A DNA stretch of 64,000 bases from Candidatus Falkowbacteria bacterium (GTDB lineage: Bacteria; Patescibacteriota; Patescibacteriia; JAACEG01), in contig JABIDK010000001.1 in assembly GCA_018651725.1 (NCBI GenBank), forward strand, positions 748-64,747, written 5' to 3'. The notes beneath the pieces are model-generated. The model ran no database searches. It saw only the letters and a program-made list of their open reading frames with translations, and was not told the origin of the DNA. Numbering within the stretch: position 1 is the first letter of the stretch; every line of letters begins with the position of its first letter. Below are positions 18,909 through 59,735 of the stretch, piece by piece. The position numbers and the translations under genes were made by a program.

Positions 18909-18980
18909 AAGAAAACTTTTTTAAATATTTTATTTTTTTACATAATATCATAAAAAAACCGTTTAAACAACAAAAAATAA

Positions 18981-19020
18981 AAGTTGTAAAAAAATGCGAC
19001 CGCACATTTTTACAACTTTT
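18981..19020. repeat. 40-bp near-palindromic element, copy 1, at the 3' side of the PaaX-like gene
   Basis: aaagttgtaaaaaaatgcgaccgcacatttttacaacttt. It is the exact reverse complement of the element at 19612-19651. Confidence 0.7.
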
Positions 19021-19067
19021 TTAAAGATAGACCGAATACATAAAATGTCTTTAATTGACTTATAAAC

Positions 19068-19595
19068 TTACAAATCAAATCTTTTCTTAAAAAGTAAGTC
19101 ATTGCTTATTTTGTCAACTACCATCAAAACTACAAATTTGGCAATTTCCAGGCGCTTGATAATATTTTGGATTTCTTCAAAATTGTCATATGGGCTTATC
19201 CAGACGCTGTTTTGGCATTTTTCAAACCCAAGGTCTATTAAAATATTTCGCAAATAATTACGCAACTCTTTTTTCTTTTCTGGAATATCAAAAATAACAA
19301 TTCTCCATTTCTTATCCCATTTTTCATTTTCTTTTTTTATTTTACCTTTGGCTATTAATAATTTTTTCAAGCCTTTTAAAGTAAACCCTTTTTTATTAAT
19401 ATATTTAAACCTTTTCAAGTGATAAATTTGAGCATAAATTCTTTTCTGCTCTTTTTTGTCTTCAATTCTTCTCCTTTTTTCGTTATAATAATCATCATAC
19501 CAAGCCCCACTTCTATTGATATTAACCTTAAGGATTCGTTCTAAATTATCAGCTAAATCCGTAATTAGTTCTTCAAGGTCAATTTTAACAGGCAT
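19068..19595 (-). CDS. PaaX-family / Cas2-like-fold putative transcriptional regulator
   Basis: C-terminal WRIVIFDIPEKKKELRNYLRNILIDLGFEKCQNSVWISPYD resembles the PaaX C-terminal (Cas2-like) domain. 175 aa. Confidence 0.5.
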   Translation of the reverse strand: MPVKIDLEELITDLADNLERILKVNINRSGAWYDDYYNEKRRRIEDKKEQKRIYAQIYHLKRFKYINKKGFTLKGLKKLLIAKGKIKKENEKWDKKWRIVIFDIPEKKKELRNYLRNILIDLGFEKCQNSVWISPYDNFEEIQNIIKRLEIAKFVVLMVVDKISNDLLFKKRFDL

Positions 19596-19611
19596 ATTTG
19601 TGGCTTATTAT

Positions 19612-19651
19612 AAAGTTGTAAAAATGTGCGGTCGCATTTTTTTACAACTTT
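19612..19651. repeat. 40-bp near-palindromic element, copy 2, in the divergent promoter region between the PaaX-like gene and tsaC
   Basis: aaagttgtaaaaatgtgcggtcgcatttttttacaacttt, which equals the reverse complement of 18981-19020. Confidence 0.7.
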
Positions 19652-19745
19652 ACGATTATAATTATGATACAATAAACCGAAATAACGGTCTTAAATATGA
19701 ATAAGTTTATTTACATTGTATTTATTATAGTATAGTTTTATAGAT

Positions 19746-20384
19746 ATGACAAAAACTGAAATTATAAAAATTAATTTGCAGAATCCGGAGAAGGATAAAA
19801 TTAAAAAAATCGCCAAAGTTATTAAAGTTGGTGGGGTTGTTGTTTTTCCGACCGACACTGTTTATGGATTGGGTGGTGATGCTTTGAATAAAAAAACAAT
19901 TAAAAAAATCTTTCAAATTAAAAAAAGAGCGTTAAATAAACCGCTCCTTATTAATATCGCTAGAAAAAAGGATTTAAAAAAATATGTAAAAAAAATTCCA
20001 AGTACTGCCAAGCCTTTAATAAAAAACTTTTGGCCCGGACCACTCACAATAATATTTGAAAAATCAGAAATTATCCCAAACGAACTAACCAATAATTCCC
20101 CCTACATCGGTATCAGAATTCCAAACAATAAAATTACTTTAAAATTAATAAAAGAAATTAATTCCCCTCTTATCTCAACAAGCGCTAATGTCTCCGGCAA
20201 GGCAACTCTAAATAATATAGAAGATATTATAAAAACCTTCAAAGATAGCGTTGATATTATAATAGACGGAGGCAATACAACTACAAATAAAGGCTCCACA
20301 ATAATAGATCTAACAAAAGAAAAACCCCTTATCCTAAGAAAAGGGGCAATAACAGACACAAAACTAATAGATTGTCTTGTTTAA
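19746..20384 (+). CDS. tsaC: L-threonylcarbamoyladenylate synthase (YrdC/Sua5 family)
   Basis: GGVVVFPTDTVYGLGGDALN and the overall YrdC-domain pattern. 212 aa. Confidence 0.85.
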   Translation: MTKTEIIKINLQNPEKDKIKKIAKVIKVGGVVVFPTDTVYGLGGDALNKKTIKKIFQIKKRALNKPLLINIARKKDLKKYVKKIPSTAKPLIKNFWPGPLTIIFEKSEIIPNELTNNSPYIGIRIPNNKITLKLIKEINSPLISTSANVSGKATLNNIEDIIKTFKDSVDIIIDGGNTTTNKGSTIIDLTKEKPLILRKGAITDTKLIDCLV

Positions 20385-20398
20385 ATTAAATAATTAAA

Positions 20399-22162
20399 TT
20401 ATTTTTCAAAGTAATCTTCAATTACTTTTTCAGCTAAAAGTTTAAAGCGATCAAGCCCTGCTATAGCCTGTGGTTCATCCCGGTCAATGCGTCGCTCAGG
20501 AAATCCGATGTCTATATCTCCTGCCTTTTTGTCTATTCCCTGATCCTTTCTCCATTGCAAAAGCGCCCTGGTTGGATCCACTCCTTTATAATAAACAATT
20601 TTTGAAGGTTTTTTTGTTGGATTTTTCGCAAAATGTTCCTCCCAAAATTCTTTAGAATTTATCGTATCCTGCGCTTCTAAAAATAAAATACTTTTATCTT
20701 CCAATGCTTTATCTATACTTAAATCAACTGAATGACCTGGATACTTTATTCCTTTTTCTTCACTCTTTTTCTCTTGAGAAAAATATTGTGAATTATCAAG
20801 AATAGCGGATTGTAGTCGTTGATCAGATATGCCAAATTCTTGTTTTAATAGCTGACGAAACGGTTCCAATTTTTTTAATTTTAATGATGCCATGGCTTGC
20901 GCATCACCACCATATCGAGTAAGTTCCCAAAATACTTTCGAAAGTTGTTTTTCAAAATTATAAAAATCCGGTGAATCTACTACATGTCTAATTGCGTCTT
21001 GATAGTCAGAATTTTCAATCGGGTTGTTATTTTTATCAAGCTTATATCGCGACCCGGTTTTTTTGTCCACTTTTGCTTCTTCGGGAATAAAAATAATTCC
21101 GGCGTTTAAATCCATACCCCTTTCTTCATTTGCCCAAACCCATTGATCATTCCAATAATCACCACGACTCATCTCGTCTCCTAATTGACCGCTAAAATAA
21201 TATTGTGAGGCAACATGGGCAGAAGGATAAGTAATAAAAATCTCATTCCCCTTTTCAGATCCATAATATGTATCAGCGACTTCTTCTGTGGCAAAATGGA
21301 TAGCCGCCCTGTCTACATAAGTTCCAGGCTCTCCCTGTCTTCCAAACCCACCTTCTGTAGTTATGAAAGCAAGAGATTCTAAGGCTTCTTCTTTGTTTTT
21401 AAACATGTTAAGCTCAAGAAATTTTACAAGAGCTTGTTCCTTTTCGTTTTCAATTAGATAAACACCAAGAGGTGAACGCAATCTTCCGTCTTCAACCATT
21501 TTCATAAAACCGCCAAAGTAAGCGCCCTTACCTGCGGTATGATGCATATGTCCAACATGATCACGAATCCCCTGTCTTGTAACGTGGGTAACCATTTCGC
21601 GTGGAAATCTTTTAAGTAAAAGCGTGTAATCTTCAAGCGACAGCGAAGCTAAATTTTCCTCAGAAAAATATTTTATAATATCTTCTTTTGAATACTCGCT
21701 CCTTGCCCACTTTTCTTCTTGTTCTTTATAAAAATTATCCAGCATTGCCCTGACACCCTCTATTCCCGATGGCGTTTCTTGTGATTTCAACTTTTCAGAA
21801 ACTGTCTGTAATTCAGTAATCCCTTTATCTTGCTGTTGTTTTAATTTCTCGTACGTTCGCTGTCCAACGACGGCATCGGCTCGAACCTTTTTTAACTTAA
21901 AATAATTTAACAGCTCCTTAAATCCTGAATTGGAAAGCTCGGTAATTTCGCTTTCCAATTTGCGGATAGCTTCCAGTTTTTTATCCAAAGATTTTTCGCG
22001 TTCACCGGTAGTTTCTTGCAATTCAGAGCGTCTTTCCGTTTGAGCCCTTTTTTCGGTAAAGTGTTCTGCTCGCTTAGCCCTAATTGTCTGAGCAGTCTGT
22101 TGTCGTTCTTCCGGCGATTTTTCTTTAGAAAAGTCTCTTATAAATTTTGGTGTTTTATCCAT
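20399..22162 (-). CDS. Large hypothetical protein (587 aa), no recognisable domain
   Basis: Long uninterrupted ORF with a charged N-terminal coiled-coil-like region. Confidence 0.55.
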   Translation of the reverse strand: MDKTPKFIRDFSKEKSPEERQQTAQTIRAKRAEHFTEKRAQTERRSELQETTGEREKSLDKKLEAIRKLESEITELSNSGFKELLNYFKLKKVRADAVVGQRTYEKLKQQQDKGITELQTVSEKLKSQETPSGIEGVRAMLDNFYKEQEEKWARSEYSKEDIIKYFSEENLASLSLEDYTLLLKRFPREMVTHVTRQGIRDHVGHMHHTAGKGAYFGGFMKMVEDGRLRSPLGVYLIENEKEQALVKFLELNMFKNKEEALESLAFITTEGGFGRQGEPGTYVDRAAIHFATEEVADTYYGSEKGNEIFITYPSAHVASQYYFSGQLGDEMSRGDYWNDQWVWANEERGMDLNAGIIFIPEEAKVDKKTGSRYKLDKNNNPIENSDYQDAIRHVVDSPDFYNFEKQLSKVFWELTRYGGDAQAMASLKLKKLEPFRQLLKQEFGISDQRLQSAILDNSQYFSQEKKSEEKGIKYPGHSVDLSIDKALEDKSILFLEAQDTINSKEFWEEHFAKNPTKKPSKIVYYKGVDPTRALLQWRKDQGIDKKAGDIDIGFPERRIDRDEPQAIAGLDRFKLLAEKVIEDYFEK

Positions 22163-22259: not shown

Positions 22260-22550
22260 CTATCCATGGGCGGCAATAAGCACTTTATTGTTCCGGCCAT
22301 CATCATAAAATACCTTACGAGTTTTATGAACAACCGAATGAAAAACAACTAAATACGCCCATACGGCCATTGGACCGGTAAGTACAACCTCTTCAATGTT
22401 AATATCCATTGTGGCGATATTTCTGCCTACAATATTAACTGCTTCTTCCACCGGAGTAATTAGATTTAACCGTCCAGCCACTTCGGTAATCTCGCAACCA
22501 TTATATAGGTTAGTGTTTGTGAGACCGAGATTAATAGTCTTAACAACCAT
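22260..22550 (-). CDS. Hypothetical protein (96 aa), islet module A, distal gene
   Basis: ORF with GC and codon usage shifted from the flanking genes. No recognised family. Confidence 0.45.
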   Translation of the reverse strand: MVVKTINLGLTNTNLYNGCEITEVAGRLNLITPVEEAVNIVGRNIATMDINIEEVVLTGPMAVWAYLVVFHSVVHKTRKVFYDDGRNNKVLIAAHG

Positions 22551-22632
22551 TTTGTCACCTCTTTATTATTTATTTTACGCTGACTATTTACCAAGGAGCA
22601 ACGATATCTCCTTTTTCAATACAACGAAAAAA

Positions 22633-23019
22633 CTATCTCCGCCATTTTCTCGCTACATCGTCAAGTTTACTCTGGAAATAGGCATCAGAGTGTTCGTGTC
22701 CGGTCATATCGGACACTTTGTCCTCTCTAATTGAAGCGTAATCCCCAACAGGAAGTTTGGACCCTACATTTTTTCTAGCTATCATGCAACTACCCATCCC
22801 ATTGGTATACCGCATGTACTCAACGGTAAAAGAGGTTTTTATAGTCTCAAAATTAACCCTGACTTTGATACTATTAATTTTGTTTATGTTCGCAAACTCG
22901 AACACAAACATTGCGATAGGCTTGAACTGGTGTAACATGCACCAACTATTATGGGCGTTAAAATTATTCTCTTCCCTCCATGGGAGGGTAGTTAAAAACT
23001 CCCTTAATTCTTTTTCCAT
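22633..23019 (-). CDS. Hypothetical protein (128 aa), islet module A, proximal gene
   Basis: A GGAGAGGAGG RBS precedes the ATG. Repeat R1 lies directly upstream. Confidence 0.45.
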   Translation of the reverse strand: MEKELREFLTTLPWREENNFNAHNSWCMLHQFKPIAMFVFEFANINKINSIKVRVNFETIKTSFTVEYMRYTNGMGSCMIARKNVGSKLPVGDYASIREDKVSDMTGHEHSDAYFQSKLDDVARKWRR

Positions 23020-37996: not shown

Positions 37997-40405
37997 CTAT
38001 TTTACCTTCTTTTCTTTCTTTAGTATCTCTATAGTTGTTTTAATAACCGTGTCCGGATTAAGGGAAATACTATCAATTCCGCACTCTACTAAAAATGTGG
38101 CAAAGTCAGGGAAGTCACTTGGGGCTTGACCGCAGATACCGATTTTCTTTTTTTGTTTTTTGGCTTTTTCTATGGCTAATTTAACTAAAGTTTTAACAGC
38201 TAGATTTCTTTCGTCGTAAACATGACTTACTAACGCGCTGTCTCGATCAACTCCCAGAGTTAGTTGGGTTAAGTCATTGGAACCGATTGAAAAGCCGTCA
38301 AAAATTTTAGCGAACTCTTCCAGTAAAATTACATTGGATGGAATTTCAGTCATTACATAAATCTCTAAATCATTTTTACCTTGGCGAAGCCCTTGCTTTT
38401 GCATTATTTGAATTACTTTTTGCCCCTCATCTATTGTTCTACAGAACGGAATCATTATTTTAAGATTTTTTAACCCAAGTTTTTGACGAACTTTTTGAAT
38501 CGCTTTACACTCCATCTCAAAAGCCGGACGATACTCTTTGCTGTAATAGCGTGAAGCTCCGCGCCAGCCAATCATTGGGTTGTCTTCGGTTGGTTCGAAT
38601 AAGTGTCCGCCGATTAAGTTGGCATATTCATTGGATTTAAAGTCGGACAATCTAACGATTACATCTTTTGGATAAAAAGCAGCTGTAATTATCGCTACAC
38701 CTTCGGCTAGCTTATCGATAAAAAATTGTTTTTTATCTTTGTAGCCTTTGGTTATCTCTTCTATTTTTTCAATATCGTCTTTTGTTAAGCGTTTTGCTTT
38801 TTTAAGTTTATCAAAATTTATCAAAGCCAAAGGATGAATTTTAATGTAACTGTTTATAATAAACTCTTCTCTTGCTAGACCCACTCCATCGTTTGGAATA
38901 AAGGATTCGGCAAAAGCGTTTTCCGGTGAACCAATGTTCATCATTATTTTTGTCTTTGGGCGTTTTAGATTTTTTATGTTATGACGAATAATTTTATGTT
39001 TTAAAAGTCCTTCATAAACATACCCCTTTTCACCCTCAGCGCAAGATACGGTTATTGGTTTTTTGTTTTTTAACTTTTTTGTAGCATCTCCGGACCCAAC
39101 GATACACGGCACCCCAAGCTCACGCGATACAATTGCAGCGTGACAGGTGCGACCGCCTTTGTCTGTAACGATTGCTCCGGCGATTTTCATTATCGGCACC
39201 CAGTCCGGATCGGTCATGTCGGTTACTAAAATCTGTCCTTTTTTGAATTTTTTAATGTCAGCTATATCTTTGATGACATTAATTTGTCCGGCTCCAATTT
39301 TAGATCCAACTGAAGCACCAACAACCATTGGTTTTTTGCGTTCCAGTAATTTATATTCTTCCAAAACATTTGGATTTTTCTGTGAGTGAACTGTTTCCGG
39401 TCGCGCTTGAACAATATATAGCTTATTGTTTCGCCCGTCTTTTGCCCACTCCATATCCATTGGTTTATTATAGTGTTTTTCAATGGTCATTGCCCAGTTA
39501 GCCAAAGTTAAAATCTCTAAATCGCTAATGCTGAATTTTTCACGATCGCGTTCAGATACTTTAATATCTTTAACCGGGTTTTTAGAGTTGTGAGTATAAA
39601 CCATTTTAACTGATTTAGTACCGATTTTTCTTGATAAAATTGCCGGAAAATTCTTTTTTAAAAGTGGTTTAAAAACATAAAATTCATCCGGTGTTACTTT
39701 TCCCTGAACAATATTTTCACCCAAACCGTAAATAGAGTTAATTAAAACCGTATCTTTAAAGCCTGATTCAGTGTCGATTGAGAACATTACTCCGGACGAA
39801 GCTAAGTCTGAGCGAACCATTTTTTGGACACCAATTGAAAGTCCGATTTCAAAGTGGTCGAATTTCTTAGTTTCCCGATAAACAATTGCTCGATTAGTAA
39901 AAAGTGAAGCAAAGCATTTCTTACAGGCTCTTAGTAAGTCTTTCTCTCCGCGAATATTTAAAAAAGTTTCCTGCTGTCCGGCAAAAGAAGCATCCGGCAA
40001 ATCTTCAGCTGTAGCCGAGGACCTAACTGCCACATCTGTTCCGCGTCCGCTTTCTTTATTTAAAGCGTTTAATTTTTTATAGGCTTTTATAATTTCTTTT
40101 TCTAGCTCTTCTGGCAAGGATGATCCCAAAATAAGTTTCCGAACTTTATTTCCGCGATAGTAAAGATTGTCGATGTTAGTTGCATCAAGTCCGCGTAAAA
40201 TAACTTTAATTTGATCTTTAATTCCGGCTTGCTCTAAAAAATAATGATAAGCTTGCGCAGTAACAGCAAACCCGTTAGGTACATTAACGCCTTTCTTAGT
40301 AAGTTGACTATACATCTCTCCCAAGGAGGCATTCTTCCCGCCTACTTTAGGAACATCTTTAATTCTAAGATCCTTAAACCAAAGTACAAAAGGTTGTTTT
40401 TTCAT
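37997..40405 (-). CDS. ppsA: Phosphoenolpyruvate synthase (pyruvate, water dikinase)
   Basis: Phospho-His domain GGRTCHAAIVSRELGVPCIVG, ATP-grasp N-terminus, C-terminal PEP-utilising TIM barrel; 802 aa. Confidence 0.9.
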   Translation of the reverse strand: MKKQPFVLWFKDLRIKDVPKVGGKNASLGEMYSQLTKKGVNVPNGFAVTAQAYHYFLEQAGIKDQIKVILRGLDATNIDNLYYRGNKVRKLILGSSLPEELEKEIIKAYKKLNALNKESGRGTDVAVRSSATAEDLPDASFAGQQETFLNIRGEKDLLRACKKCFASLFTNRAIVYRETKKFDHFEIGLSIGVQKMVRSDLASSGVMFSIDTESGFKDTVLINSIYGLGENIVQGKVTPDEFYVFKPLLKKNFPAILSRKIGTKSVKMVYTHNSKNPVKDIKVSERDREKFSISDLEILTLANWAMTIEKHYNKPMDMEWAKDGRNNKLYIVQARPETVHSQKNPNVLEEYKLLERKKPMVVGASVGSKIGAGQINVIKDIADIKKFKKGQILVTDMTDPDWVPIMKIAGAIVTDKGGRTCHAAIVSRELGVPCIVGSGDATKKLKNKKPITVSCAEGEKGYVYEGLLKHKIIRHNIKNLKRPKTKIMMNIGSPENAFAESFIPNDGVGLAREEFIINSYIKIHPLALINFDKLKKAKRLTKDDIEKIEEITKGYKDKKQFFIDKLAEGVAIITAAFYPKDVIVRLSDFKSNEYANLIGGHLFEPTEDNPMIGWRGASRYYSKEYRPAFEMECKAIQKVRQKLGLKNLKIMIPFCRTIDEGQKVIQIMQKQGLRQGKNDLEIYVMTEIPSNVILLEEFAKIFDGFSIGSNDLTQLTLGVDRDSALVSHVYDERNLAVKTLVKLAIEKAKKQKKKIGICGQAPSDFPDFATFLVECGIDSISLNPDTVIKTTIEILKKEKKVK

Positions 40406-43139: not shown

Positions 43140-44186
43140 TTACTCTGTTTTTGGTCTGTCTACCTCTAAAGGCTCGATACTTGGTGTTTTGCCCGAAATT
43201 TTAACTACATCTTTGTCTACTTTTTTAAGTTCTTTGTAAGCGTGATTATAGTGATTGACTGTTGTCCCGAGGGAGGCGCCTATTTTTTTGAAGTAATCTT
43301 CATAGCTGTTAATGTGTCTGCCGAGCATCTCTACCCTTTTTCTGATTTCTTTGGCTGATTCTTCTATTTGAAGGGCGTTTAATCCTTGGACAACCATTTG
43401 CAAGTAAGCGTAAAATGATGTTGGTGAAGTTATGATAACATGTTTATCTGTGAAAGCGTATTCAATTAAATCTCGAGTATTTACTTTAACCGCGCCAACT
43501 TGGTTAACCAGTAAATCGTAGTAAATTCCCTCGGCTGGAATAAACATAAAAGCAAAGTCCATTGTTCCTTTTTCCGGTTTAATATATTTAGCTGTTTCAT
43601 CGATTCTTTTTTTAAGATCCAGCTTAAATTCCTTTTCAAATTTTTCTCTTTGAATAGGGTCTTTTTCAGAGACAATGCGATTATAGTTTTCCAATGAGAA
43701 TTTAGAGTCTACAGGAATAATTTTGTCTTTTACAAAAACAGCCGCATCCACAATATCGCCATCACCAAAGGCGTACTGCATCTTATAGGTTGATGGTGGT
43801 AGGACATTTTTTAAAATTAGCTCCAGTTGATATTCGCCTAAAATTCCGCGGTGTTTAGGGTTTTTTAAAATGTCTTCCAGGTTTTGCAAAGGAGTCTTTA
43901 AGTCTAAAACTTGTTTAGAGGTGCTGTCCAGTTGAGTTAACTTTTCTGTAATATTAGTAATTATTTTAGTGCTTTCGGAAAATTGATTTTGCATTAAACG
44001 AGAAGATTCTCCCAGTCTAGTGTCTAAAGTTTTAGTAATTTCATTGATTTGATTTTGTAAAAGAATTAAACCTTTGTCGTCCTTTTGTTTGTCGGTTGCT
44101 TCACTGAATTTTTTATTTAAAAAATATAAAATAATACCGAATCCAGCTAAAACTATTAAAATAATAACAATTTGAAATATGTTCAT
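43140..44186 (-). CDS. rmuC: DNA recombination protein RmuC
   Basis: N-terminal TM, long coiled coil, C-terminal DFAFMFIPAEGIYYDLL motif of the RmuC family. Confidence 0.8.
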   Translation of the reverse strand: MNIFQIVIILIVLAGFGIILYFLNKKFSEATDKQKDDKGLILLQNQINEITKTLDTRLGESSRLMQNQFSESTKIITNITEKLTQLDSTSKQVLDLKTPLQNLEDILKNPKHRGILGEYQLELILKNVLPPSTYKMQYAFGDGDIVDAAVFVKDKIIPVDSKFSLENYNRIVSEKDPIQREKFEKEFKLDLKKRIDETAKYIKPEKGTMDFAFMFIPAEGIYYDLLVNQVGAVKVNTRDLIEYAFTDKHVIITSPTSFYAYLQMVVQGLNALQIEESAKEIRKRVEMLGRHINSYEDYFKKIGASLGTTVNHYNHAYKELKKVDKDVVKISGKTPSIEPLEVDRPKTE

Positions 44187-44196
44187 AAAAAGTAAA

Positions 44197-44234
44197 TTAT
44201 CAGCCAGGGGGCTGATCAGCCCCCTGGCTGATAA
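44197..44234. repeat. Perfect 38-bp GC-rich palindrome in the divergent intergenic region
   Basis: ttatcagccagggggctgatcagccccctggctgataa. Confidence 0.7.
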
Positions 44235-48733: not shown

Positions 48734-48777
48734 TTAAGCATATAATCATTTAAACATTTAAGCAAGTTGTTTTGCAA

Positions 48778-48793
48778 TGTTTCACGTGAAACA
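48778..48793. repeat. parS-type palindrome, copy 6
   Basis: aatgtttcacgtgaaacatt. Confidence 0.75.
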
Positions 48794-48860
48794 TTATAAA
48801 ATACTTTTAGGAAGCGGGGAAACTTAGTGTTTCCCCGAGATTGGAAGCATAAAAGTACGA

Positions 48861-49274: not shown

Positions 49275-50240
49275 TTATATTTTGATGTTTTTGGCTAACT
49301 GAATGTATTTTTGAGCTGTTTGAGGTAGTTTGTGACCGAGTATTTGCTGGATTTCGCTTACTTTAGTGCCTTTTTTTGCTAAATTAACTGCGAATGTATG
49401 TCGTAGCGAATGACAAGTAGCTTGTTTTTTGATTTTTGTTTTTTTAAAGACTTGTAGAAAGGCTTTTTGAATGGCTCTTTCGGTTAATTTTTGATTTTTT
49501 TGTCCTTTAAATAAATAATTATCTGATAATGTTTCACCCGCCACCAGAACGGTGTCGGGCAGGCGTGAAACATTATCGTCATATGATTGTTCTTGCCCGC
49601 CTGCAACGCTGTAGCAACTGCGGGCAGGTGTTCCAATATATTTTTTTAGCTTTTCAACAATATTTTTTGGTAAACCTAATGTTCTTTTTTGGTGTTTTCC
49701 GTTATTAGTTATTTTAACTTGATTTTTAAAAAAGTCCAGTGTTTTTACCTTAATATTAACTATTTCTGATATTCTAAGGCCTGTTAAGTACATTAATTCA
49801 AAAATTAGCCGATGTTTTGGGTTTTGGGTTGATTTTAGTATTTTGTTTACCTCTTTATCTGTTAAAATAACTGGTTGTTTTTTATCAAGCTTGGCCCGAC
49901 CGATTTTTCCATGCGGAGCAAAAAATTTACGATGTAAAATGCTCTCAAAATAGAACTTTAAAGCACTATGGGTGGTATTTAAGGTAGAACGTGACTTTTT
50001 TTCTTTAACTAGTTTCTCTAAGTAGCTAATTATATCTTTACTTTGAATATTTTTAGGGCTTTTACTCGCAAAACTAACTATTTCTGAGATATAATAAAGG
50101 TAGCTTTTAATGGTTTTACTATCAAAATTCAACTCAACCATTGTTTTCTTTAGCTTATGAAGTGGATTTTTACTGGGGTATTTGTAGGGAATCATGTTAA
50201 TATTTAAACAAGCGAAACGACGATGTTTCACGTGAAACAT
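49275..50240 (-). CDS. Tyrosine recombinase / integrase (XerC/XerD-like); start codon uncertain
   Basis: C-terminal catalytic region HSLRHTFAVNLAKKGTKVSEIQQILGH...YIQ. The annotated N-terminus MFHVKH is encoded by a parS copy, so the real start is probably an internal Met. The ORF contains in-frame GC-rich palindromic insertions. Confidence 0.75.
   Translation of the reverse strand: MFHVKHRRFACLNINMIPYKYPSKNPLHKLKKTMVELNFDSKTIKSYLYYISEIVSFASKSPKNIQSKDIISYLEKLVKEKKSRSTLNTTHSALKFYFESILHRKFFAPHGKIGRAKLDKKQPVILTDKEVNKILKSTQNPKHRLIFELMYLTGLRISEIVNIKVKTLDFFKNQVKITNNGKHQKRTLGLPKNIVEKLKKYIGTPARSCYSVAGGQEQSYDDNVSRLPDTVLVAGETLSDNYLFKGQKNQKLTERAIQKAFLQVFKKTKIKKQATCHSLRHTFAVNLAKKGTKVSEIQQILGHKLPQTAQKYIQLAKNIKI
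49530..49572. repeat. Split parS: the two half-sites are separated by a 27-bp GC-rich insert, inside the integrase ORF
   Basis: tgtttcac | ccgccaccagaacggtgtcgggcaggc | gtgaaaca. Confidence 0.65.
49596..49630. repeat. GC-rich 35-bp element, copy A, in frame in the integrase ORF
   Basis: cccgcctgcaacgctgtagcaactgcgggcaggtg. A near-identical copy lies at 60860-60893. Confidence 0.65.
50224..50239. repeat. parS-type palindrome, copy 9
   Basis: gatgtttcacgtgaaacatt. Confidence 0.75.
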
Positions 50241-50303
50241 TTGTTATCACGTACATTTTTTGGTTTAGGTTAAGGCCCGTGTGTTTTCTTATCTTTTTAT
50301 TAA

Positions 50304-50319
50304 TGTTTCACGTGAAACA
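50304..50319. repeat. parS-type palindrome, copy 10
   Basis: aatgtttcacgtgaaacatt. Confidence 0.75.
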
Positions 50320-50561
50320 TTAATATGATTGGAAATTTGTTGTTAATTACGTTATAATAATAGCATGAATAAAATAAAAAGTCAAATAGTTCGGATATAA
50401 CGAAGGTTTATTTAATAATCTTGTATTTTTTAAAAAGTTTGATATACTTTAAGTAGGTAGTTTTAACAAGCTGTAAGTTCGCATAACATACAAAATTAAG
50501 CTATTAAAAATCAATAAGTTCGTTAATAACTTCTTATATGAAATAAAATTAAGGTAACTAT

Positions 50562-52312: not shown

Positions 52313-52498
52313 TTATATGTCTTCAAGTGGACACCATTCCGGTAATTTTCGCCAATCAGTTACTAGCTTACGATTAAGCTTTCTTTCGTCTTCATAGGTC
52401 TGAAAACAAAGTGTGTGATAGGGTTTAACCGGGGTTAAGGTGATACTGCTTGAATGTGGACAATTGCCACAATTTTCTACCACATAAATTTTTGCCAT
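52313..52498 (-). CDS. Small Cys-containing protein (61 aa)
   Basis: Strong RBS taggagg; ENCGNCPHS...C...C. Confidence 0.45.
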   Translation of the reverse strand: MAKIYVVENCGNCPHSSSITLTPVKPYHTLCFQTYEDERKLNRKLVTDWRKLPEWCPLEDI

Positions 52499-52694
52499 TA
52501 TTTCCTCCTATTTTAATATTTACACATCTTAATAATTATTTTATATATTTGAACATATAAAGTCAATACATAATTTTGAAAGAAATATTAAACTTTAAAA
52601 TGTTGACAAAATTCGCGACCGCGAATTATATCAACATTTTAGGGGTTGTGATAAGTGGAGTGGTATCGTTTTTTTTAAAAGTATAATTAAAATT

Positions 52695-53171
52695 ATGAGA
52701 AAAAAACGTATTATAGTTTGTGGAATTGTTTATAGTAACAACAAGGTATTACTGGGACGAAAAGCAAAAGGAGTCCCACCATATCCTGATGTTTGGCATA
52801 CTTTGGGTGGTGGCGTAAAAGATACTGATAAGGCGGAGCAGTTGCTATTGAATAATACGTATAATGCTTCATATTTTTTAGAAGAGTTAAGACGTGAATT
52901 AGCAGAAGAAGCTGGAATAAAAATAAATAACTCAACAAATATTTGCCCGAAGTATCGCGATAATCCGCGAGAAGCTATTGCAGCGAATAAAGATGGCGAT
53001 GAAACTAAATATATCTTTTTGGAATACTTATGCGAGTTGGATTTAAGTTCTAGTGATGGTCGTCCAGGAGATGATATTGCAGAACTCCAGTGGGTTGAAA
53101 AAAAAGATCTTAGAAACATAAAACTTACACCACCAAGCCAAGAAATGTATCAAGAATTAGGATGGATGTAA
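52695..53171 (+). CDS. NUDIX hydrolase
   Basis: Nudix box GG..........EELRRELAEEAGI. Confidence 0.75.
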   Translation: MRKKRIIVCGIVYSNNKVLLGRKAKGVPPYPDVWHTLGGGVKDTDKAEQLLLNNTYNASYFLEELRRELAEEAGIKINNSTNICPKYRDNPREAIAANKDGDETKYIFLEYLCELDLSSSDGRPGDDIAELQWVEKKDLRNIKLTPPSQEMYQELGWM

Positions 53172-59698: not shown

Positions 59699-59705
59699 AG
59701 GGTTA

Positions 59706-59735
59706 GTCTATAAAGTCTATAAAGTCTATAAAGTC
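59706..59735. repeat. Three tandem copies of a 9-mer
   Basis: gtctataaa gtctataaa gtctataaa. Confidence 0.6.

What the first reader, a model, noticed from the sequence alone, without database searches (positions are those of the whole stretch)
18981..19651. A PaaX/Cas2-fold gene bracketed by two perfect 40-bp inverted copies of a near-palindrome
aaagttgtaaaaaaatgcgaccgcacatttttacaacttt (18981-19020) and its exact reverse complement (19612-19651) flank the 175-aa gene 19068-19595. Each copy is itself a hairpin: 13-bp A/T arms around an asymmetric GC core, tgcgaccgcaca. One copy sits where a terminator would be. The other sits in the divergent promoter shared with tsaC, where a terminator makes no sense. 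Forty of forty identical bases implies either recent mobility (a roughly 670-bp MITE/IS-like cassette with terminal inverted repeats) or strong constraint, such as twin operators for autoregulation by the encoded PaaX-like protein.
Basis: seen in the sequence. Interest (0 to 1): 0.55.

Follow-up and report, generated by a model that had tools for sequence, protein, structure and literature searches.

The report
Twin operator-like palindromes bracketing a mini-PaaX gene
Two identical 40-bp palindromes bracket a small PaaX-like DNA-binding gene (mislabelled Cas2) in a Candidate Phyla Radiation bacterium; relatives show the same layout with a shared CGACCG centre, so these are most likely the protein's own binding sites, not the ends of a mobile element.

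Summary
The 40-mer lies at 18980-19019 (reader off by one base) and its exact reverse complement at 19612-19651, around a 175-aa gene with a winged-helix N-terminus and a PaaX_M/Cas2-like domain.

It is not a private feature of this locus. In 12 of 13 homologue lineages (30-82% identity, all Candidate Phyla Radiation (CPR)), near-palindromes of 36-42 bp lie within about 150 bp of the gene. Eleven lineages have them on both sides. Their centre is CGACCG (CGATCG in two), and the arms are lineage-specific.

A third site at 52598-52639 lies 33 kb away between divergent genes. It overlaps a promoter-like element.

In four relatives the gene-proximal arm supplies the -35 box of a canonical promoter. 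Palindrome mismatches are A.A/T.T, not G.U, so the symmetry is read on DNA.

A sister lineage keeps the cassette beside tsaC, but with diverged and non-identical sites. There is no target-site duplication, no second copy and no transposase.

Best reading: operator sites of the encoded mini-PaaX dimer, giving autorepression and possibly a loop around its own gene. The 40/40 identity reflects recent homogenisation. Protein binding is inferred, not shown, and the role of the downstream site is unresolved.

The parts
19612..19651 (.). Upstream site: 40-bp near-palindrome, centre GCGACCGC in gene sense, 16 bp before the ATG of the mini-PaaX gene
   Evidence: Scores E = 3.5e-8 with the family site profile R1. 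Homologous upstream sites occur in the other lineages.
19068..19595 (-). Mini-PaaX gene: 175 aa, predicted winged helix (residues about 30-72) plus a Cas2-like PaaX_M domain (91-161). It lacks the PaaX C-terminal ligand domain.
   Evidence: Pfam. NCBIfam cas2 score 32.1 against a cut-off of 24.5, and PaaX equivalog 40.5 against 264. AlphaFold model pLDDT 82.6. Foldseek top hit is E. coli PaaX 8a39, then VapD and Cas2. Profile against PDB.
18980..19019 (.). Downstream site: exact inverted copy of the upstream site, 48 bp after the stop codon and 71 bp before the start of the 568-aa gene on the same strand
   Evidence: Downstream sites are present in 11 of the 12 lineages where the 3' flank is held, including three where the next gene is convergent.
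52598..52639 (.). Third, solo site of the same family (AAATGTTGACAAAATTCGCGACCGCGAATTATATCAACATTT). It lies between a divergent 61-aa Cys-rich ORF (52313-52498, -) and a NUDIX gene (52695-53171, +).
   Evidence: Shares GTTG-N9-GCGACCGC-N9-CAAC exactly. It is the best hit of profile R1, 32.9 bits, E = 3.4e-9. ORFs and Pfam.
19607..19612 (-). TATAAT hexamer abutting the upstream site, a candidate -10 box that would give a near-leaderless mRNA
   Evidence: Read from the sequence. Inference only; no good -35 box lies 16-18 nt upstream.
19724..19752 (-). Promoter-like TTGTCA-17-TATAAT (11 of 12 matches), 72 bp upstream of the site. If this is the promoter used, the site lies in the transcribed leader.
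   Evidence: Part of this stretch is conserved in sister lineage L184, but it also covers the tsaC start.
19641..19668 (+). Promoter-like TTTACA-16-TATGAT facing tsaC. Its -35 hexamer is inside the outer arm of the upstream site.
   Evidence: Consensus match only.
52625..52654 (-). Promoter-like TTATCA-18-TG-TATAAT (extended -10). Its -10 box lies in the right arm of the solo site and faces the 61-aa ORF.

Best explanation
The two 40-mers are binding sites (operators) for the protein encoded between them. That protein is a truncated PaaX-type regulator with a winged-helix DNA-binding domain and a Cas2-like dimerisation domain. A two-fold symmetric dimer would bind each roughly 40-bp palindrome. 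I infer that the variable winged helices read the lineage-specific outer arms (here AAGTTGTAAAAA), while the centre of the dimer sits over the invariant CGACCG. Binding at the upstream site, which overlaps or abuts the gene's promoter, would repress the gene's own transcription. The downstream site is a second operator. It could cooperate with the first by looping the 630-bp gene, as lambda OL and OR do. It could also block or terminate read-through into the next gene. A third site 33 kb away places at least one more promoter region under the same control. The perfect 40/40 identity is a recent homogenisation of two functional sites, not a sign of transposition. Shown here: the sites, their family-wide conservation and positions, DNA-level symmetry, and the protein fold. 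Inferred: that this protein binds them, that binding represses, and what the downstream site does.
For: 1) The layout is conserved. Near-palindromes with a CGACCG or CGATCG centre lie within about 150 bp of the gene in 12 of 13 homologue lineages (L184, L185, L073, L076, L074, L078, L180, L181, L182, L108, L134, L107; not evident in L183). Protein identity is 30-82%, and gene neighbourhoods differ except in L184, which shares tsaC, and in the related L073/L076 pair. Eleven lineages show sites on both sides; for L107 only the 3' flank is held. Some have clusters: 3 upstream in L078, 3 downstream in L074, 2 upstream in L185.
2) The signal separates cleanly from background. Across 222 kb of CPR sequence, arm pairing around such centres is bimodal: 1-10 of 18 for background and 11-17 for sites.
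3) Promoter overlap. The gene-proximal arm supplies a -35 box, followed by 17 nt and a -10 box: TTCACA-17-TATAAT in L073 and L076, TTGTCA-17-TATATT in L185, GTGTCA-17-TATAAT in L184. The solo site overlaps an extended -10 promoter-like element.
4) The symmetry is read on DNA. 88.9% of cells are paired and 16 of 18 pairs show double changes, with 0 of 500 shuffles reaching this. Only 1 single-sided (G.U-type) change occurs against 79 double changes, and mismatches are mostly A.A and T.T.
5) The protein fits. The predicted fold best matches E. coli PaaX 8a39 over winged helix plus Cas2-like domain. The E. coli PaaX operator is TGATTC-N27-GAATCA, 39 bp, the same size class (PMC9493321).
6) Recognition-helix families track outer-arm families. 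IYxQIYHL goes with yTTGwr, and FYNAFYSL/YYNSFYYL goes with TTGCAAAAA/TTGATAAAA. The centre stays constant alongside the invariant WDxKWRxxIFDIPE motif.
7) Solo sites lie in 5' intergenic regions: window 52.6 kb, L108 upstream of a corA-like gene, L114 upstream of obg.
Against: There is no binding or expression data. Downstream sites occur even between convergent genes (L180, L181, L182), where no promoter needs an operator, so part of the layout is unexplained by simple autorepression. The whole 15-18-bp arm is palindromic in every lineage, not just short half-sites. That is more symmetry than typical operators show and could mean hairpin or cruciform recognition. The centre is asymmetric (AC) yet conserved, which a perfectly symmetric dimer does not require. 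In this window the site sits only 16 bp from the ATG, and no convincing -35/-10 pair places it as clearly as in relatives. The solo site is not conserved at the NUDIX orthologue of a 72%-identical relative. The recognition helix is nearly constant in the close clade while the inner arms differ.
Confidence: 0.58

Rival explanations
1. RNA-level element. The palindromes act as hairpins in the transcript: a 3' terminator or stabiliser after the gene and a 5'-leader hairpin. They might be bound or cut by the Cas2/VapD-like domain, which in other proteins is an endoribonuclease.
For: Stable hairpins. In the window the downstream copy is followed by TTTTATTTTTTG. If the 19752-19724 promoter is used, the upstream copy is transcribed. 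The Cas2/VapD fold and the FDIPE aspartate are conserved. Weak Rfam hits fall on the terminator parts of sRNA models.
Against: G.U pairs are almost absent where RNA helices normally accumulate them: 3 of 324 cells and 1 single-sided change. The centre's orientation relative to the gene is mixed both upstream and downstream. In L073, L076, L184 and L185 the upstream site overlaps the -35 box, so it lies outside the transcript. T-runs are missing after most downstream sites (L073, L076, L078, L108). GC pairs sit at the loop end rather than next to the U-tract, and the terminator scan calls none. The solo site lies between divergent genes.
Confidence: 0.12
2. Mobile cassette. The 672-bp unit is a MITE/IS-like element whose terminal inverted repeats are the 40-mers, and it inserted recently.
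For: Perfect 40-bp inverted repeats. The site-gene-site unit appears in different gene neighbourhoods in most lineages.
Against: No target-site duplication. One cassette in 64 kb and one PaaX_M gene per locus. The protein has no transposase or integrase domain. No relatives in 2.9 M viral contigs. Sister lineage L184 (82% identity) has the cassette at the same position beside tsaC, with diverged and mutually different sites, so the insertion is old. In L076, L182, L108 and L134 the two sites are direct rather than inverted. Several loci carry 3-4 sites. Solo sites overlap promoter-like elements.
Confidence: 0.06
3. Site-specific recombination sites of lox/FRT or hix type. Inverted binding arms surround an asymmetric crossover centre, letting a trans-acting recombinase flip (or excise) the gene as a switch.
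For: The arm, asymmetric centre, arm anatomy and the exact inverted orientation in the window mimic loxP, FRT and hix sites. The asymmetric AC centre is conserved. A tyrosine recombinase gene lies at 49275-50240.
Against: All 23 metagenome contigs read (10 shown) have the same arrangement, with no flipped variant among those shown. The paired sites are in direct orientation in four lineages, which would delete the gene. No recombinase gene was called within 4-10 kb of the 8 homologue loci for which gene calls were returned. Site number varies from 2 to 4, and solo sites exist.
Confidence: 0.06
4. REP/RAYT-like selfish pair. The Cas2-like protein is a structure-specific nuclease that maintains and spreads its own flanking hairpins, which then also occur as dispersed solo copies.
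For: A single-copy gene flanked by inverted palindromes. Lineage-specific palindrome sequences co-vary with the protein. Solo copies occur in intergenic regions. The Cas2 catalytic-position aspartate (D103) is invariant in this family but lost in E. coli PaaX. The whole arm is symmetric. The window copies were recently homogenised.
Against: Copy number is low: one solo in 64 kb and about two in roughly 170 kb of unselected flanks. There is no HUH/Y1 domain. Promoter overlap is consistent across lineages. A catalytic role for Cas2-like domains in such a process has no precedent.
Confidence: 0.08

Closest known systems
PaaX repressor of phenylacetate catabolism (E. coli, Pseudomonas; PDB 8a39, 3L09) and its operator TGATTC-N27-GAATCA
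   Same: Winged helix followed by a Cas2-like middle domain. It is the best structural and profile match. PaaX is autoregulated. Its operator is a roughly 39-bp inverted repeat, the same size class as the 40-bp sites here (PMC9493321).
   Different: This protein is half the size and lacks the C-terminal phenylacetyl-CoA-binding domain. It scores 40.5 against the equivalog cut-off of 264. It keeps the Cas2-type FDIPE motif that E. coli PaaX has lost. There are no paa genes nearby. The site sequence is unrelated, it is palindromic over its whole length, it has a conserved CGACCG centre, and it occurs on both sides of the gene.
Lambda cI with the OL and OR operator clusters
   Same: A repressor gene is bracketed by clusters of its own palindromic operators. 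Long-range looping between the two clusters tightens autoregulation. This is the closest known logic for twin sites around a regulator gene (established knowledge, not tested here).
   Different: The protein fold is unrelated. The lambda loop is 2.4 kb with 17-bp operators. Here the distance is about 630 bp with 40-bp sites, and looping is purely inferred.
CRISPR Cas2
   Same: The domain scores above NCBIfam's cas2 cut-off (32.1 against 24.5) and shares the beta1-Asp and QxSV motifs. This is why public records name the protein Cas2.
   Different: It has an N-terminal DNA-binding domain. No cas1 or other cas-family hit appears among the genes called within 5 kb. There is no CRISPR array in 64 kb. 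The Cas2 label is an annotation artefact.
REP elements with RAYT genes
   Same: A single-copy gene is flanked by inverted palindromic repeats whose sequence is specific to the gene's lineage, and further copies occur in intergenic DNA.
   Different: There is no HUH/Y1 transposase. Copy number is very low. The sites overlap promoters.

Membership tests
PaaX-family transcriptional regulator | Central Cas2-like PaaX_M domain (PF20803) | tested here: met
   E = 4.9e-23, 81.5 bits against a cut-off of 24. All 113 homologues carry it.
PaaX-family transcriptional regulator | N-terminal winged-helix DNA-binding domain | tested here: inconclusive
   No Pfam hit on residues 1-90. The model shows three helices plus a beta wing (H32-43, H47-62, strands 66-71). 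Foldseek and the profile both align this part to PaaX 8a39, at modest significance (3.8e-3 and 3.7e-4).
PaaX-family transcriptional regulator | C-terminal PaaX_C domain (phenylacetyl-CoA sensing) and equivalog-level score | tested here: not met
   The protein ends at residue 175. There is no PF08223 hit. TIGR02277 gives 40.5 bits against a cut-off of 264.55.
PaaX-family transcriptional regulator | Operator TGATTC-N27-GAATCA and a paa gene neighbourhood | tested here: not met
   The sites read yTTG-N10-CGACCG-N10-CAAr. Neighbours are tsaC, a PsbP_2-like membrane protein and rpoB.
CRISPR-Cas adaptation protein Cas2 | Score above the cas2 model cut-off | tested here: met
   TIGR01573 gives 32.1 bits against 24.5. 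PADLOC Cas2 models hit at 1e-8.
CRISPR-Cas adaptation protein Cas2 | Adjacent cas1 and a CRISPR array | tested here: not met
   No tandem or CRISPR-like array in 64 kb. No cas-family Pfam hit among called genes within 5 kb, or within 4-10 kb of the homologue loci with gene calls.
MITE / IS element with terminal inverted repeats | Terminal inverted repeats | tested here: met
   40 of 40 bases, inverted. This is formally met, but in four homologue lineages the two sites are direct.
MITE / IS element with terminal inverted repeats | Target-site duplication | tested here: not met
   Outside flanks AAAAAATA and ACGATTAT share nothing.
MITE / IS element with terminal inverted repeats | Multiple copies, or presence/absence polymorphism | tested here: not met
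   One cassette in 64 kb. The arrangement is identical in all contigs shown. The sister lineage has it at the same tsaC-adjacent position. The rest of the genome could not be scanned.
MITE / IS element with terminal inverted repeats | Encoded or trans-acting transposase | tested here: not met
   No transposase domain in the protein.
Intrinsic (rho-independent) terminator | GC-rich stem directly followed by a U-tract, located at a 3' end | tested here: inconclusive
   The left copy is 3' of the gene and followed by a T-run. However, its GC pairs sit at the loop end and the scan does not call it. The right copy and the solo site lie between divergent genes. Most homologues lack the T-run.
REP / RAYT system | HUH-Y1 transposase gene flanked by REPs, with tens to hundreds of dispersed REP copies | tested here: not met
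   There is no HUH domain. Three sites occur in 64 kb, with a clear score gap to the next hit. Genome-wide copy number could not be tested.
Recombinase inversion system (lox, FRT, hix type) | Both orientations of the segment present in the population | tested here: not met
   The contigs shown all have one orientation. The population is nearly clonal, so rare flipped variants are not excluded.

The most novel reading that the evidence does not exclude
The site-gene-site unit is a self-contained module in which the invariant Cas2-like domain, with its catalytic-position Asp103 retained, reads or nicks the invariant asymmetric CGACCG centre of hairpin- or cruciform-forming palindromes. That would make this large CPR family (about 5,000 clusters at 50% identity) a Cas2-fold, sequence-specific DNA-acting protein that maintains its own flanking repeats. 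It would be a REP/RAYT-like or proto-CRISPR-repeat-like system rather than a plain repressor.
Probability: 0.1. Interest if true: 0.85.

Novelty: new variant of a known kind. Interest (0 to 1): 0.45.

Why it matters
Almost nothing is known about gene regulation in Candidate Phyla Radiation bacteria, which cannot be grown alone.

This analysis turns a routine misannotation ("Cas2") into a defined, testable regulator-plus-site pair:
- a large family of roughly 180-aa wHTH-Cas2-like proteins (4,997 clusters at E <= 1e-10);
- a recognisable site, yTTG-N10-CGACCG-N10-CAAr, conserved across deep divergence;
- sites on both sides of the gene and at a few other promoters.

That gives a direct handle for EMSA or DAP-seq and for regulon prediction in CPR genomes from sequence alone.

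It also shows a Cas2-fold domain in a sequence-specific DNA-binding context with palindromic repeats. This bears on how PaaX, VapD and Cas2 are related.

For annotation pipelines, these proteins should not count as evidence of CRISPR-Cas.

Tried and rejected
- **Genome-contig scan** (AGTTGTAAAAA-N8-20-TTTTTACAACT): 62 hits, all unrelated organisms and all chance hairpins. None of the hits was from a Falkowbacteria record, so the source species seems not to be represented and genome-wide copy number stayed untested.
- **Metagenome-contig scan** (degenerate family pattern): 99 hits. Most were non-palindromic chance matches in GC-rich DNA. Seven were real sites, four of them next to PaaX_M genes. 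The source population was not among the listed hits.
- **Viral contigs**: the DNA pattern gave one chance hit. The protein family gave no relatives.
- **Population variation** across 10 contigs: 0-1 SNP per 4.7 kb, so it says nothing about constraint.
- **Conservation of the solo site** at the NUDIX orthologue of a 72%-identical relative: no site. The gene there sits inside a dNTP-metabolism operon.
- **Rfam**: nothing at gathering threshold. Only weak terminator-like partial hits.
- **PHROGs**: no hit. **PADLOC**: only Cas2 models.
- **Integron attC reading**: rejected, because the core and inverse-core motifs do not fit.
- **The 40-mer as itself a -35/-10 promoter**: rejected for the window copies, where the spacing and hexamers are poor.
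- **The fourth GCGACCGC** at 39149: lies inside an ORF, is not palindromic, and is a chance match.

Full report
**The observation**

Its exact reverse complement is at 19612-19651. No other copy with up to three mismatches exists in the 64-kb window, and none appeared in 100 shuffles.

Each copy is a near-palindrome: 13 perfect pairs, a 2-nt mismatch, and a GCG/CGC stem around an asymmetric centre. Each folds far better than shuffled sequence.

Between the copies lies a 175-aa ORF (19068-19595, minus strand) with a PaaX_M (Cas2-like) domain. On that strand the order is: upstream site, 16 bp, gene, 48 bp, downstream site, 71 bp, then a 568-aa membrane-anchored PsbP_2-like gene. tsaC (Sua5/YrdC) diverges from the upstream side.

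The window comes from a Candidatus Falkowbacteria (CPR) population, GCA_018656705.1. Ten metagenome contigs carry the identical arrangement. That population is nearly clonal, so this says nothing about constraint.

**The protein**

Public records call it Cas2 because it passes NCBIfam's cas2 cut-off (32.1 against 24.5 bits). It is not a CRISPR protein. There is no array in the window, and no cas-family hit among the called neighbours.

An AlphaFold model (pLDDT 82.6) shows three N-terminal helices with a beta wing, a long linker helix, and a ferredoxin-like domain. Its best PDB match is E. coli PaaX (8a39), over both the winged helix and the Cas2-like domain. VapD and Cas2 follow.

It lacks the PaaX C-terminal ligand domain and scores far below the PaaX equivalog cut-off. 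Unlike E. coli PaaX, it keeps the Cas2-type WRxVIFDIPE and QxSVW motifs, which are invariant in the family.

A profile search of 1.84 billion representatives finds 4,997 clusters at E <= 1e-10. The best 150 are all 124-241 aa. This is a large family of mini-PaaX proteins.

**A third site in the window**

The rare octamer GCGACCGC occurs four times in the window (0.34 expected). One occurrence, at 52598-52639, is a 42-bp near-palindrome that shares GTTG-N9-GCGACCGC-N9-CAAC exactly with the 40-mer.

It lies between a divergent 61-aa Cys-rich ORF and a NUDIX gene. It overlaps an extended -10 promoter-like element.

A sequence profile built from 18 sites of many lineages finds exactly these three sites in the window (E <= 4e-8). 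The next hit is at E = 0.55, and the solo site scores best.

**Relatives**

I read the loci of homologues at 82% to about 30% identity:

| Locus | Homologue |
|---|---|
| L184 | P0002 |
| L185 | P0004 |
| L073 | P0005 |
| L074 | P0006 |
| L076 | P0009 |
| L078 | P0011 |
| L180 | P0017 |
| L181 | P0040 |
| L182 | P0053 |
| L183 | P0081 |
| L107, L108, L134 | found through the DNA-pattern scan |

- In 12 of 13 lineages, near-palindromes of 36-42 bp lie within about 150 bp of the gene. In 11 they lie on both sides; for L107 only the 3' flank is held.
- The centre is CGACCG in all lineages with such sites except L074 and L184, where it is CGATCG. L183 has only a non-palindromic CGATCG stretch upstream.
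- In most lineages TTG and CAA sit 11-13 bp from the centre. The rest of the arms differs between lineages but stays palindromic.
- Several loci have site clusters: three upstream in L078, three downstream in L074, two upstream in L185.
- Around such centres, arm complementarity is cleanly bimodal across 222 kb of CPR sequence.
- Gene neighbourhoods differ in most lineages.
- Of the 80 listed metagenome hits to a degenerate pattern, seven were real sites and four of those sat next to a PaaX_M gene.

**DNA or RNA?**

Across 18 sites, 88.9% of arm cells are complementary and 16 of 18 pairs show changes on both sides. No shuffle out of 500 reached this, and slid controls gave 36-42%. Only one single-sided (G.U-type) change occurs against 79 double changes. 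Non-paired cells are mostly A.A and T.T.

The orientation of the asymmetric centre relative to the gene is mixed, both upstream and downstream.

In L073, L076, L184 and L185 the gene-proximal arm provides a -35 hexamer, followed by 17 nt and a -10 box. The site there therefore lies on the promoter, not in the transcript.

No Rfam family matches. This points to two-fold symmetric recognition of duplex DNA, not an RNA helix.

**Mobility**

- There is no target-site duplication and no second cassette or second PaaX_M gene.
- The protein has no transposase domain, and the family has no relatives in viral contigs.
- The sister lineage L184 (82% identity) has the cassette at the same place. The first 123 nt of that contig match the tsaC start region of the window.
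- Its two sites have a CGATCG centre, differ from the window's sites at about 10 of 40 positions, and differ from each other at about 20% of positions.
- The cassette is therefore old at this position. Paired sites in relatives are about 80-95% identical, against 100% here. The 40/40 identity is best read as recent gene conversion between two functional sites.
- In four lineages the paired sites are direct rather than inverted, which also argues against terminal inverted repeats or inversion sites.

**Mechanism proposed**

A dimer forms through the Cas2-like domain, as in PaaX and Cas2, and binds each palindrome. The E. coli PaaX operator, TGATTC-N27-GAATCA, is 39 bp, the same size class (PMC9493321).

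Recognition-helix families track outer-arm families, while the centre and the Cas2-like motifs stay constant. I therefore infer that the winged helices read the outer arms and the dimer core faces CGACCG.

Upstream binding would occlude the promoter, giving autorepression. The downstream site is present even between convergent genes (L180, L181, L182), so it is not simply the operator of the next gene. The options are cooperative looping around the 630-bp gene, as with lambda OL and OR, or a roadblock or terminator aid. I cannot separate these.

Solo sites suggest a small regulon. They occur at window 52.6 kb, at L108 upstream of a corA-like gene, and at L114 upstream of obg. The NUDIX-linked site is not conserved in a 72%-identical relative.

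**What remains odd**

- Whole-arm symmetry in every lineage.
- The conserved asymmetric AC centre. Its symmetric one-step variants, CGATCG and CGGCCG, are rare or absent.
- Retention of the Cas2 catalytic-position aspartate.
- Recent homogenisation of the window's two copies.

Together these keep open a structure-specific or nuclease-linked reading, to which I give about 10%.

**Verdict**

This is a new variant of a known kind: an autoregulated winged-helix repressor with palindromic operators. Its interest lies in the family-wide conserved site and the Cas2-fold context. Confidence in the operator model is about 0.58.

Noticed in passing
window 48770-48801 and 50298-50325: Two copies of the palindrome AATGTTTCACGTGAAACATT contain the full parS consensus TGTTTCACGTGAAACA. 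They bracket a tyrosine recombinase gene (49275-50240, minus; Phage_integrase 1.2e-33). This is a second case in the window of a gene flanked by protein-binding-type palindromes. It may also mark the origin-proximal region.
   Followed up: partly
window 19068-19595 (public annotation): NCBI and JGI name this protein 'CRISPR-associated endonuclease Cas2' because it passes the TIGR01573 cut-off. The whole mini-PaaX family (thousands of clusters) is likely to inflate CRISPR-Cas counts in CPR genomes.
   Followed up: yes
L184 150-330 (sister lineage, Logan SRR8146440): An extra stretch of about 200 bp, richer in GC, lies between tsaC and the upstream site and is absent from the window. It carries inverted repeats (CCCCACAGCAAGCTGG ... 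CAGCAAGTTGCGGGG). It could be a small insertion element or a structured RNA.
   Followed up: no
window 44197-44234: A 38-bp perfect compound palindrome, TTATCAGCCAGGGGGCTGATCAGCCCCCTGGCTGATAA, lies in the gap between genes ending or starting at 44186 and 44427. It is unusually GC-rich for this 34% GC genome.
   Followed up: no
L006 about 944 bp downstream of the upstream site (568-aa gene orthologue): One metagenome contig (ERZ4200980) differs from the window from this point on in an ungapped comparison, consistent with an indel. Its gene calls split the 568-aa PsbP_2-like gene into 112-aa and 467-aa ORFs. All other contigs are near-identical.
   Followed up: no
L186 8882-14734 (relative of the window's NUDIX gene 52695-53171): In a 72%-identical relative the NUDIX gene sits in a dNTP-metabolism cluster: dCMP deaminase, dCTP deaminase/dUTPase, NDK, ThyA, DHFR and dNK/thymidylate kinase. 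This suggests the window's NUDIX protein acts on nucleotides. In the window it stands alone behind the solo site.
   Followed up: partly
window 20399-22162 and 22260-23019: A 587-aa ORF and several small ORFs next to tsaC have no Pfam hit. They are conserved in all population contigs.
   Followed up: no
window 59705-59735: A perfect 9-bp tandem repeat, AGTCTATAA x 3.4, lies in an intergenic gap.
   Followed up: no
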